IMG/VR virus record: IMGVR_UViG_2703718791_000008
Coordinates: 1 to 39,792 of that record
Length of the DNA stretch: 39,792 nucleotides
From: a virus
Taxonomy: Duplodnaviria > Heunggongvirae > Uroviricota > Caudoviricetes
Reading direction: 5' to 3' (one strand)
Part shown: positions 35,458 to 38,400 of the stretch, in pieces
How positions within the stretch are numbered: the stretch's first letter is position 1
Layout: every line of letters starts with the position of its first letter
Position numbers: made by a program

Positions 35458-38400
35458 TGACACGAAATAAACGTCCGACAAGCACAGCAGCCAATACCTA
35501 AAAACAATATTTTGCCGAATATTCAGTTCGTTATAAAGGTTAAGCATTGAGTATACCAACTGTCTCTCTATGGAATGAGATGGGGTTAATCCCCCCAATA
35601 GACGAGGCTGATCCTACAAGCCATACTCGTTCCCCATACAAAATGGATATAGTACGCTTTGTTAGTACTTTTTCGCTTAGCCCTGCAAGGATTAAAATCC
35701 TTAAGGGTTTTCTTAACTTTCGTGTTTCACTCACTCAAGCAGGGCTAGTTGAAGGTTTTCAGTGGGTAGATGGAAGCTTCACAGAACATATTGAACTTAT
35801 TGAAAAAAGGCCACCGAATGATGTCGATGTTGTGACCTTTTTTCAATTCAGTAATGGCGATAATGATGCAATCGTAATCGGTAGAAAGCCAGAGCTATTT
35901 GATCATGATTTTGTTAAGAAGGAGTTTTTCGTAGATTCCTACTTCCAAGAACTTAATCTACCAAGTCATGAGCTTGTTGAAATGACTGTATACTGGTACA
36001 GTATGTGGGCACATAGACGCGATCTGTCGTGGAAGGGATTTATCCAAATCCCGTTAAACCCACAACTTGATGTTGTGGCAATGACTATACTTAATTCGGC
36101 TACTACTGAGGGGGTCAAACAATGAATCGTAATGATTATGTTTTCGCTCTCAGTGAGCGCGAGCAAATAAGTAATCTATTAAAAAATATGCCAACAAGTC
36201 ATTCTATTAGCCGAAAAAGCTTAGAAGACCGTCTGGAGAAAGTTGAGCGATTAATTTCACAAGCTGACGTTCGAGAACATGAACCTACGCATGCTGTGTT
36301 AACTTTTAGAGGCCCAACAGTAGTTGGCACGCATGGCATTTCAGCAGTATTTGGAACAAAAGCTATATCTTGTTTTAATGATGCAATAGCTTACTTGGCA
36401 ACCTCTTTCAATGGCCCACTTCCTGCATCAGGCAAGATACCAAACATAGAAAATAATCATCTCATGATTACCGCGTCAGCCCGTGGTTCTTTCGGATTTG
36501 TACTTGAAGAGTTTAGACCTGATGCTCCTCTTGAATTCGATGAAGAAACCCCAGTAGCAAAAGCTATTAATAAGGCCAGAAAAATATTTCAGGCAAGCTT
36601 GGATAATGATGATGAAGAATTGTCTGATGCTATAGAAAACTTAGACTCTCGGGCCTTAGATAAAATCAGAGCATTCATTCATTATCTGCATGAAAATAAA
36701 ACAGTTTTTACACTTAAAAGCCAAGGTTTTAGCATCGTTTTTAGAGAGCCAAAACAGCTTGAAGCTGTATATCAACATCTCAGCAATGATAACATTCAGC
36801 AGGAAAAAATTATTGAGAACGTTATATTTTTGGGAACTCTTCCTAACAAGCGCCAATGTGAATTTATAGTTTTAGGTAACACTGATATCAGAACCGCTAG
36901 CATTGACAAAGCTGTAGATGACCCAGATATTATAAACAAGCACTTAGGAAGCGTTGCAACAGCCACGTTCCTGAAAAAAACTGTTGGTAAGGGCAAGCCC
37001 AGATACACTCTGGTTTCTCGACCTCAATGGGATATTAAATCAATCGATTAGAATGAGCCCCTTCAGCCCGGCCACCGCGCCGGGTTTTTACTGCCTGTCG
37101 CTCCCCACAAGCGAAGAAGCCGAACGCATCTCTTCAATACTGAAGGTTTACGTTCGGCCTCAATAATGCAAAAGCATTCAGCATAATGTCCAACTCCCCA
37201 GTCCGACATTGATGCTGTTTAACCAGAGCCTCCAAAAGGAAGCCCTTGTTAAGGTACACAATATTTGCGATGTAACCTTAGCGCGTCTGGTACATTTTTT
37301 CAAGCGGTTGTAGGGCTGCCGCTAATATGAGAAAACACAGATGTCTACATACAATTTGAATGGCCAATTCGATCGAGAAGTTCATGTGAATGCCTATGAA
37401 CGGATAAGGCATGGAAATCTTGAACATGTGTGTGAGCATTATCGCTCAAGGCCACATCGCTGATAATCAAATCTCAACCCGGCCTCAGCGCCGGGTTTTC
37501 TTTGCCTCACGCTCCCCCTCACCCAAGAACACATAACCAATTGTATTTATTTGAAAATTAATAGATACAACTCACTAAACATAGCAATTCAGATCTCTCG
37601 ATCACCTTCCCAATCCACACAACCATGCAAAAAATAAATCTATATAAAAAACATACAGATAACCATCTGCGGTGATAAATTATCTCTGGCGGTGTTGACA
37701 TGCATACCACTAGCGGTGATACTAAACACATCAGCAGGACGCTGGTAGCCAAACGGAACAGATTGGCAGGCACTTTAACATTGATGGGATTGTCCCGCCG
37801 AAATGCGGGAACCAAAGAGTAGTTGGCTTTGGGGTGACGTGAAGTGCAGCTGCACGACGGCAACCGGAAGATAAGCACCCGGCGCGTCACCGCCAAAGTC
37901 AATCATCGGAGGTCAACATGACAGTAGTCATTACATATCTGGCTGACGATAACGCCAGAAATCGCCGCAGAGCACGCAGACAGGCTCAACGTGAACAGGA
38001 AATGCAAGAGCAGCGACTGGCGCGAAAAATTGCGCTAAAGCTCTCTGGTTGCGTCAGAGCAGATAAAGCAGCATCACTCGGAAGCCTTCGCTGCAAGAAG
38101 GCAGAAGAAGTCGAGCGTAAACAGAACCGTATTTACTACCGCAAGCCACGCAGTGAAATGGGTGTGACTTGTGTTGGTCGCCAGAAAATGAAATTAGGCA
38201 GCAAACCACTTATTTGAGGTGATATATGACAATATCATGGAGCGTACCTTTTCCTGAATCAGAAACTGAACATGATGGAATGCCTGTTTTCTGGAGATTC
38301 CAGGCGACAGTTGAAGAAGATGGAATCAAAATATTCGCACTTCAATATATAGCTTTTCATCAGACAGAGCATTATGCATGGTTGGTTCCTGCGCATTGGA

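What the first reader, a model, noticed from the sequence alone, without database searches (positions are those of the whole stretch)
37661..38217. Lambda operators combined with a non-lambda N and matching nut sites
OL/pL and OR are almost lambda-identical, yet the N protein has a different arginine-rich N-terminus. An identical boxB hairpin (tcccgccgaaatgcggga), preceded by a boxA-like element, occurs both downstream of pL (37770-37810) and between cro and cII (34395-34439, minus strand). The duplication at both expected nut positions supports a functional N/nut pair of non-lambda specificity recombined into a lambda immunity region.
Basis: partly seen in the sequence, partly recalled or inferred. 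Interest (0 to 1): 0.45.

Follow-up and report, generated by a model that had tools for sequence, protein, structure and literature searches.

The report
HK620-type N/nut module beside lambda immunity
This E. coli-type prophage pairs phage lambda's repressor/operator cassette with the N antiterminator and its two matching RNA hairpin sites already annotated in coliphage HK620, which is ordinary module shuffling among lambda-like phages and not a new system.

Summary
The 18-nt hairpin TCCCGCCGAAATGCGGGA occurs exactly twice. One copy is 63 nt into the pL transcript, upstream of N. The other is on the opposite strand between cro and cII. Each follows a boxA. OR is 100/100 identical to lambda, and OL2 and OL3 are identical.

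From pL +1 onward, nutL, nutR and the N-terminal arginine-rich motif are 98-100% identical to coliphage HK620, whose GenBank record annotates these sequences as nutL, nutR and N. The full-length N matches CUS-3 and IME10. It is itself a mosaic of an HK620 N-terminus and a phage 21/lambda-type C-terminus.

Of 80 viral contigs with this N, 77 carry the same boxB at both nut positions, across at least five immunity types. Among 80 contigs with a lambda-type cI, non-lambda N/nut sets are the majority, and the N motif type always agrees with the boxB type.

The exact lambda-OL/HK620-nutL junction is rare: 0 of 50,697 phage records and 5 of 5,426 E. coli genomes.

Binding specificity of this N/boxB type is inferred, not tested. 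Interest is low.

The parts
37476..37497 (+). tIMM-like intrinsic terminator that ends the cI / rex-slot transcript
   Evidence: Terminator scan. The blocks shared with other lambda-immunity prophages resume at 37475.
37661..37721 (.). Lambda OL operators: OL3 37661-37677, OL2 37681-37697, OL1 37705-37721
   Evidence: OL3 and OL2 are identical to lambda; OL1 has 1 mismatch.
37695..37723 (+). pL promoter (TTGACA, 17-nt spacer, GATACT), with transcript start inferred at 37730
   Evidence: Promoter scan; alignment with lambda pL. The +1 position is placed by homology with lambda.
37730..37741 (+). Conserved boundary sequence ATCAGCAGGACG at pL +1, the left-hand junction between the lambda immunity cassette and the HK620-type module
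   Evidence: The motif is present in lambda, HK97, phage 21, HK620 and HK630. Homology switches from lambda to HK620 here. CUS-3 annotates a 'boundary sequence' at this place.
37769..37780 (+). nutL boxA, GGCACTTTAACA; the A at 37772 replaces a conserved T
   Evidence: All 82 other nutL copies examined have GCTCTTTAACA.
37793..37810 (+). nutL boxB hairpin (6-bp stem, CGAAAU loop)
   Evidence: Identical to the annotated nutL of HK620.
37918..38217 (+). N antiterminator gene (99 aa). Residues 1-33 are the HK620-type arginine-rich module, 34-72 are shared with HK620 and phage 21, and 73-99 are a phage 21/lambda-type C-terminus.
   Evidence: PHROG 271, E = 5.8e-37. Alignment. The C-terminal 38 aa align to lambda N in PDB 6GOV, E = 1.2e-4. 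Pfam N_peptide scores 20.9 bits, below the 27.9 cut-off.
38801..38858 (+). Two terminator-like hairpins (38801-38818 and 38839-38858) in the pL operon downstream of N; candidate tL1-type targets of antitermination
   Evidence: Terminator scan only.
34747..35460 (+). Lambda-type cI repressor
   Evidence: 233/237 identical to lambda cI; Pfam HTH_3 and Peptidase_S24.
34671..34736 (.). Lambda OR1-OR3 (34673-34689, 34697-34713, 34720-34736), with pR on the minus strand at 34699-34671
   Evidence: The intergenic region is 100/100 identical to lambda; promoter scan.
34446..34646 (-). Lambda-type cro
   Evidence: 65/66 identical; Pfam Cro, E = 1.3e-34.
34427..34438 (-). nutR boxA, CGCTCTTTAACA
   Evidence: Identical to the HK620 nutR.
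34395..34412 (-). nutR boxB hairpin (8-bp stem when flanking bases are included, CGAAAU loop)
   Evidence: Identical to the annotated nutR of HK620.
34370..34387 (-). Hairpin GCGCAT-AAGTTG-ATGCGC in the tR1 region. It belongs to the ~100-bp nutR-tR1 cassette that is identical to HK620 and replaces the lambda sequence between the cro stop and the cII ribosome-binding site.
   Evidence: Alignment. Its role is inferred from position only.
34040..34336 (-). Lambda-type cII; homology to lambda resumes at its ribosome-binding site
   Evidence: Pfam Phage_CII, E = 1.3e-48.

Best explanation
This is a standard lambdoid N-dependent antitermination module of the HK620 sequence type, flanking a lambda immunity cassette.

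Proposed mechanism. Transcripts from pL (start about 37730) and pR carry nutL and nutR respectively. Each nut site is a boxA followed 12-14 nt later by the CGAAAU-loop boxB hairpin. The N-terminal arginine-rich helix of N (residues about 10-30) binds boxB. BoxA recruits NusB and NusE. The phage 21/lambda-like C-terminal segment of N engages RNA polymerase. The modified polymerase then reads through the tR1 region and the terminators downstream of N.

Proposed origin. The arrangement arose by homologous recombination at short conserved boundary sequences. One is ATCAGCAGGACG at pL +1. The others are the 3' end of cro with boxA, and the cII ribosome-binding site. Recombination there lets an immunity cassette be exchanged between nutR and nutL while N and both of its sites stay together.

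What is shown. The sequence identities, positions, hairpin and co-occurrence statistics are shown directly. RNA binding, Nus-factor dependence, terminator read-through and orthogonality to lambda N are inferred from homology with the lambda, phage 21 and P22 systems.
For: - The hairpin occurs exactly twice, at the two canonical nut positions, and folds stably.
- From 37729 onward, nutL and the 5' part of N are 98-99% identical to HK620, HK630, CUS-3 and IME10.
- The HK620 record annotates the identical sequences as nutL, nutR and N.
- The nutR-tR1 cassette is identical to HK620, while the flanking cro and cII are lambda-type.
- N matches PHROG 271 'anti-termination protein N-like' at E = 5.8e-37. 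Its C-terminus aligns to lambda N residues 71-107 in the antitermination complex structure 6GOV.
- 77 of 80 IMG/VR loci with this N have one boxB copy at each nut position, across at least five operator types.
- In 62 lambda-cI loci where N motif and both boxB hairpins could be read, the motif type and boxB type always agree: 43 HK97/H-19B type, 16 lambda type, 2 HK620 type, 1 P22 type.
- Phage 21 and E. coli EC416 share the leader and boxA, and the central and C-terminal parts of N. They differ together in boxB and in the arginine-rich motif.
- The promoter and terminator scan finds pL, pR, tIMM and two terminators downstream of N.
Against: - No experiment on this N/boxB type was found in the searchable literature.
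- The Pfam N_peptide match is below the curated cut-off, 20.9 against 27.9 bits.
- In the longer boxA-to-boxB context the fold is not better than shuffles, z = -0.73 and -1.76.
- The nutL boxA carries a T-to-A change at a conserved position, seen in none of 82 related copies. This could weaken NusB/NusE recruitment at nutL.
- No intrinsic terminator was detected downstream of nutR, so read-through of a Rho-dependent tR1 is assumed by analogy with lambda.
Confidence: 0.88

Rival explanations
1. The N/nut set is of HK620 type but is not a separate specificity. The loop contains GAAA, the first four bases of lambda's GAAAA loop, and the motif shares the A-x-x-RRR-x-RR core. Lambda N and this N might therefore cross-recognise each other's boxB, which would make the 'matching' functionally unimportant.
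For: The arginine-rich core of this N aligns with lambda N: ARNRRRARR against AQTRRRERR. The loop CGAAAU contains a GAAA core. No specificity experiment was found.
Against: There is strict co-variation of motif type with boxB type at both nut sites in 62 lambda-immunity loci, and in 77 of 80 loci carrying this N. This argues that selection keeps them paired. The stem sequence, the loop length (6 against 5) and the residues after the RR core all differ from lambda. There is no Trp at the position of lambda Trp18.
Confidence: 0.12
2. The module is a decaying remnant. The unique T-to-A change in the nutL boxA, inside a prophage, means leftward antitermination is impaired and the pair is no longer fully functional.
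For: The boxA variant GCACTTTAACA is seen only in the window, out of 83 nutL copies. Transversions at other conserved boxA positions (2, 5, 6) are known to reduce NusB-NusE binding and lambda N antitermination (PMC3177189).
Against: N, cI, cro and cII are intact open reading frames. Both boxB copies and the nutR boxA are perfect. The effect of a change at boxA position 4 is not reported in the paper read. A sequencing error or a neutral polymorphism cannot be excluded.
Confidence: 0.1
3. The two hairpins are not N-binding sites but some other repeated element, such as terminators, protein-binding DNA palindromes or RNase III sites, that happens to sit near boxA-like sequences.
For: Any perfect 6-bp inverted repeat is also a DNA palindrome. 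There is no direct binding evidence.
Against: No T-run follows either hairpin, and the terminator scan does not call them. Their positions, orientation relative to pL and pR, and boxA spacing match nut sites in lambda, phage 21, HK97 and HK620. They co-vary with the N motif and not with the repressor or operator type.
Confidence: 0.02

Closest known systems
Coliphage HK620 N / nutL / nutR (GenBank AF335538; Clark et al. 2001, J Mol Biol 311:657, cited via the PMC2629481 reference list)
   Same: The nutR boxA-boxB-tR1 cassette is identical. nutL is identical except for one base in boxA and one in the leader. N residues 1-72 are nearly identical, including the arginine-rich motif.
   Different: HK620 has its own repressor and operators and a P22/HK97-type N C-terminus (…CLPNVAIYAAGYRKSKQLTAR). 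The window has lambda cI, cro, OL and OR and a phage 21/lambda-type C-terminus.
N of phages CUS-3, IME10, N7, Gally, HZ41 and vB_EcoP-611R6
   Same: Full-length N and nutL are 98-99% identical at the DNA level, so this is the same HK620/phage 21 chimeric N.
   Different: These are P22-like podophages with non-lambda immunity regions. None carries the lambda OL junction.
Phage 21 N / nut
   Same: It shares the pL leader and the boxA up to a few bases before boxB, and the central and C-terminal parts of N (71% identity overall). Its boxB is also a 6-bp stem with a 6-nt loop of the form C-N-A-A-N-Y.
   Different: The boxB stem and loop sequence differ (CUAACC against CGAAAU), as does the arginine-rich motif (GTAKSRYKARRAELIAERR against DDNARNRRRARRQAQREQE). 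The immunity region also differs.
Phage lambda N / nut
   Same: Same architecture: N is the first pL gene, and boxA plus boxB occur in the pL leader and after cro. The N C-terminal RNA polymerase-binding segment is homologous. The immunity cassette is lambda's.
   Different: Lambda boxB is GCCCU-GAAGA/GAAAA-AGGGC, a 5-bp stem with a 5-nt loop. Its boxA is CGCTCTTA, not the rrn-like CGCTCTTTAACA. The arginine-rich motif and the middle of N are unrelated in sequence; overall identity is 39% and concentrated at the C-terminus.
HK97, and the many prophages with lambda-type cI/OL but HK97/H-19B-type N and GACAA-loop boxB
   Same: These set the precedent for the same kind of mosaic. They have lambda operators and cI, the same ATCAGCAGGACG boundary, then a foreign N with matching nutL and nutR.
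   Different: The N motif (GNSRSRRRERLKAK) and the boxB (GCGCUGACAAAGCGC) are different.

Membership tests
Lambdoid N/nut processive antitermination module | A small basic protein with an N-terminal arginine-rich motif, recognisable as an N homologue | tested here: met
   PHROG 271 'anti-termination protein N-like', E = 5.8e-37. It is 86% identical to HK620 N and 71% to phage 21 N. The Pfam N_peptide hit is only sub-threshold, 20.9 against 27.9 bits.
Lambdoid N/nut processive antitermination module | N is the first gene of the pL operon, immediately downstream of OL/pL | tested here: met
   pL is at 37695-37723 and the N start codon is at 37918, with no other credible gene between them.
Lambdoid N/nut processive antitermination module | Two nut sites, each a boxA followed by a boxB hairpin, one in the pL leader and one in the pR transcript after cro | tested here: met
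   The spacers are 12 nt at nutL and 14 nt at nutR.
Lambdoid N/nut processive antitermination module | boxA matches the NusB/NusE-binding consensus (CGCUCUU(U/A)A...) | tested here: met
   The nutR boxA CGCTCTTTAACA differs only in its first base from the phage 21 nutR boxA TGCTCTTTAACA. The paper read states that the lambda-imm21 BoxA is identical to the E. coli rrn BoxA. The nutL boxA has one substitution, GGCACTTTAACA, whose effect is unknown.
Lambdoid N/nut processive antitermination module | The N motif type co-varies with the boxB sequence across phages (cognate pairing) | tested here: met
   77 of 80 loci with this N carry this boxB at both positions. In the 62 fully readable lambda-cI loci there were 0 mismatched combinations. 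EC416 and phage 21 are natural swaps.
Lambdoid N/nut processive antitermination module | A C-terminal RNA polymerase-interacting segment homologous to lambda N residues ~73-107 | tested here: met
   phmmer hit to 6GOV chain N: query residues 62-99 align to residues 74-110 of the chain, E = 1.2e-4.
Lambdoid N/nut processive antitermination module | Terminators downstream of the nut sites that require read-through | tested here: inconclusive
   Two terminator-like hairpins lie downstream of N at 38801-38858. No intrinsic terminator was called after nutR, only a hairpin at 34370-34387. Rho-dependent sites cannot be predicted with these tools.
Lambdoid N/nut processive antitermination module | N binds boxB RNA and, with NusA, B, E and G, suppresses termination | not testable with these tools
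   This needs reporter assays or in vitro binding.
Lambda immunity group (imm-lambda) | cI, cro and the six operators are of lambda sequence | tested here: met
   OR is 100/100 identical; OL2 and OL3 are identical and OL1 has 1 mismatch; cI is 233/237 and cro 65/66 identical.
Lambda immunity group (imm-lambda) | rexA and rexB lie between cI and OL, as in lambda itself | tested here: not met
   They are replaced by a DUF6932 protein (35547-36125) and a 309-aa protein (36122-37051). This slot varies among lambda-immunity prophages.

The most novel reading that the evidence does not exclude
The HK620-type pair may be a further ARM-RNA recognition mode that has not been characterised structurally and is orthogonal to the solved lambda, P22 and phage 21 pairs. 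The pair consists of the arginine-rich motif DDNARNRRRARRQAQREQE and a boxB with a 6-bp stem and CGAAAU loop, possibly a GAAA tetraloop flanked by a C·U mismatch. Natural chimeras that differ only in motif and boxB on an otherwise shared scaffold (the window, EC416 and phage 21) would then be a ready-made set of orthogonal RNA-peptide tethers and antitermination switches.
Probability: 0.45. Interest if true: 0.3.

Novelty: new member of a known kind. Interest (0 to 1): 0.1.

Why it matters
It matters little beyond correct annotation. It is a clean example of how lambdoid phages swap an immunity cassette between conserved boundary sequences while N and its two physically separated target sites stay together.

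Two modest points could be followed up. First, this very common N/boxB type, present in many P22-like and Stx-converting phages, appears never to have been tested for RNA-binding specificity. Second, natural chimeras on a shared scaffold would make such tests easy.

Tried and rejected
- **Rfam.** A scan at gathering threshold found only two tRNAs, and no family matched at either nut site.
- **The search for related loci with a five-N alignment.** It failed because no stretch was conserved enough. I used the single protein instead.
- **Junction pattern in GTDB species representatives.** 0 hits. It found only 2 IMG/VR contigs.
- **Degnan et al. 2007, Mol Microbiol (wild lambda-immunity phages).** I recall this paper, but it is not held in the library. 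Nothing is cited from it. One of its deposited records (EF120456, mEp332) was used instead.
- **Literature search for the exact hairpin sequence.** 0 papers.
- **First automatic hairpin picker.** It chose the stronger hairpin downstream of boxB and mis-set the cro reading frame. The corrected version is. It still mis-reads the P22-type nutR, where the stem has a mismatch, and in locus L142 it also picked a leader hairpin for nutL; EC416's P22 nutL boxB was read correctly.
- **Hairpins as terminators.** Considered and rejected: there is no T-run and the scan does not call them.
- **The 40-aa ORF 37700-37822 that overlaps nutL.** Considered as a real gene and rejected as spurious. HK630 annotates an equivalent 'hypothetical protein', but the ORF spans the promoter and nutL.

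Full report
**Orientation.** The window is a lambdoid prophage read in the reverse of the conventional lambda map. cI (34747-35460) and N (37918-38217) are on the + strand. cro (34446-34646) and cII (34040-34336) are on the - strand.

**Check of the observation.**
- The 18-nt sequence TCCCGCCGAAATGCGGGA is found at 37793-37810 (+) and 34395-34412 (-). With up to two mismatches allowed there are no other copies, and shuffles predict 0.01 matches.
- Alone it folds as a 6-bp stem (nutL) or 8-bp stem (nutR) with a CGAAAU loop. Energies are -10.5 and -12.5 kcal/mol, z = -2.95 and -3.65. With the upstream boxA region included, the z-scores are unremarkable at -0.73 and -1.76.
- Each copy lies 12-14 nt downstream of a boxA: CGCTCTTTAACA at nutR (34438-34427) and GGCACTTTAACA at nutL (37769-37780).
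- The cI-cro intergenic region is 100/100 identical to lambda. OL2 and OL3 are identical and OL1 has one mismatch. cI is 233/237 identical, cro 65/66 and cII about 94/97.
- The consensus scan recovers pL (37695-37723), pR (34699-34671), a tIMM-like terminator (37476-37497) and two terminator-like hairpins downstream of N at 38801-38858.
- The description and coordinates in the finding are therefore accurate.

**What it is.**
- Homology to lambda stops at pL +1. From 37729 onward the sequence is 98-99% identical to HK620, HK630, CUS-3, IME10, N7 and many others, including Stx-converting phages.
- The HK620 GenBank record annotates exactly these sequences as nutL, nutR, tR1 and N.
- On the other side, the roughly 100 bp between the cro stop codon and the cII ribosome-binding site are identical to HK620. 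This stretch contains boxA, boxB and a second hairpin. The flanking cro and cII are lambda-type.
- The switch points coincide with short sequences conserved among otherwise different phages. ATCAGCAGGACG at pL +1 is present in lambda, HK97, phage 21, HK620 and HK630, and CUS-3 annotates a 'boundary sequence' there. The others are the 3' end of cro with boxA, and TAAGGAAATACTTACATATG at cII.

**N is itself mosaic.**
- Residues 1-33 (MTVVITYLADDNARNRRRARRQAQREQEMQEQRL) are HK620-type.
- Residues 34-72 are shared with both HK620 and phage 21.
- Residues 73-99 (VERKQNRIYYRKPRSEMGVTCVGRQKMKLGSKPLI) are phage 21/lambda-type, whereas HK620 ends with a P22/HK97-type tail.
- The last 38 residues align to lambda N in the cryo-EM antitermination complex 6GOV, E = 1.2e-4.
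- The same full-length chimera occurs in CUS-3, IME10, N7, Gally and HZ41.

**Evidence that N and the hairpins are a cognate set.**
- At least 562 IMG/VR stretches encode a relative of this N, and the best 80 are at least 96% identical. Of those 80, 77 have exactly one copy of the boxB upstream of N and one on the opposite strand beyond the immunity region.
- The remaining three loci either are truncated or lack the anchor.
- The intervening immunity regions fall into at least five operator types: phage 21-like, HK620-like, two others, and lambda-like in three loci.
- Conversely, I examined 80 IMG/VR loci whose cI is at least 98% identical to the window's. In every locus where the N motif and both boxB hairpins could be read, the combination was consistent:

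| N motif type | boxB loops | Loci |
|---|---|---|
| HK97/H-19B | GACAA | 43 |
| lambda | GAAGA / GAAAA | 16 |
| HK620 | CGAAAU | 2 |
| P22 | GACAA (nutL only; nutR not read automatically) | 1 |

- E. coli EC416 has the same lambda OL, the same leader, a near-identical boxA (GGCTCTTTAACT) and the same N C-terminal half as the window. It has a P22 boxB (GCGCTGACAAAGCGC) together with a P22 arginine-rich motif.
- Phage 21 likewise shares the leader, boxA and most of N, but differs jointly in boxB (CUAACC loop) and in the motif.
- These natural swaps are the strongest available evidence that the motif and boxB are selected as a pair.

**How it most likely works (inferred by homology with the lambda, phage 21 and P22 systems).** The nascent pL and pR transcripts present boxA, which binds NusB and NusE, and boxB, which is bound by the arginine-rich helix of N. 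The C-terminal segment of N contacts RNA polymerase. The modified elongation complex reads through the tR1 region and the terminators beyond N. None of these steps was or could be tested here.

**How novel it is.**
- The N/nut type has been annotated since the HK620 genome paper (Clark et al. 2001, cited in PMC2629481).
- The principle that N-terminal N variation implies a new boxB specificity is routinely invoked in lambdoid genome papers (PMC2629481; PMC8022706).
- Lambda immunity combined with a foreign N/nut set is the majority state in the sample above and is exemplified by HK97.
- Only the particular junction, lambda OL followed by HK620-type nutL, is uncommon. It is in 0 of 50,697 phage records, 5 of 5,426 complete E. 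coli genomes, 0 GTDB species representatives and a handful of IMG/VR contigs.
- Those relatives share the cII-to-cI block and the tIMM-to-N block, but carry different cargo between cI and OL.
- I found no experimental work on the specificity of this N/boxB type in the searchable library. That is the only open point.

**Caveats.**
- The Pfam N_peptide hit is sub-threshold.
- The nutL boxA has a T-to-A change at 37772 that is unique among 83 copies. Transversions at boxA positions 2, 5 and 6 are known to be deleterious (PMC3177189). Position 4 is not covered there, so the consequence is unknown.

**Verdict.** The feature is an ordinary, already annotated module in a rare but unremarkable mosaic combination. 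Interest is about 0.1.

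Noticed in passing
window 35547-37051: The rexA/rexB slot between cI and OL is occupied by a 192-aa DUF6932 protein and an overlapping 309-aa protein of unknown function. The DUF6932 protein scores Pfam E = 2e-26 and gives a weak hit to the PADLOC candidate defence family PDC-M63A, E = 2e-10. The 309-aa protein matches phrog_18731. The same gene pair sits next to a lambda-type cI in E. coli CE10, E26 and others, and other lambda-immunity prophages carry different cargo here. It is a likely prophage-encoded defence or exclusion cassette.
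   Followed up: partly
window 37772 (nutL boxA): The nutL boxA reads GGCACTTTAACA, whereas all 82 other HK620-type nutL copies examined read GCTCTTTAACA. This is a unique T-to-A change at conserved boxA position 4. It could be a real variant that weakens NusB/NusE binding, a neutral polymorphism or a sequencing error.
   Followed up: partly
window 37712 (OL1) and 37701-37703: OL1 is TACCACTAGCGGTGATA, a G-to-A change relative to lambda, and the pL spacer reads ATGC where lambda has ATAA. The OL1 variant is shared with E. coli Br_190_kylling, EC416 and IMG/VR locus L017, so it is a lineage polymorphism of wild lambda-immunity prophages and not an error.
   Followed up: partly
window 2000-25000: The virion structural module (terminase, DUF1073, DUF2213, DUF3383 sheath-like protein, SLT transglycosylase) has no close relative among 50,697 deposited phage genomes. 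The best hit covers 13% at 70% identity, to a Vibrio phage. The module is about 98% identical to prophages in 20 of 5,426 complete E. coli genomes. This is a lambdoid early region joined to a little-studied tail and head module.
   Followed up: partly
window 27186-27341: Two adjacent tRNA genes on the minus strand, tRNA-Thr (TGT) and tRNA-Asn (GTT), lie in the late-regulation/lysis part of the prophage.
   Followed up: no
window 667-1815: A 382-aa ORF on the + strand at the end of the tail region matches the phage O-acetyltransferase family phrog_3333, E = 1.2e-46. It is a possible serotype-conversion (O-antigen modification) moron.
   Followed up: no
L090 (E. coli E26, NZ_CM143883.1) 1377-1516 and 4567-4839: A prophage with the same lambda-type cI, DUF6932 protein and 309-aa gene carries yet another N (MSRKTEFKGTAASRRRARRANLQ…). 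Its nutR hairpin is TCGCTGAAAAGCGA. This is a further motif/boxB type next to the same immunity cassette.
   Followed up: no
window 38226-38696: A 156-aa ORF immediately downstream of N belongs to phrog_1636 (unknown function, E = 3e-111). It has the same length and position as HK97 gp45 and is also present after N in EC416.
   Followed up: no
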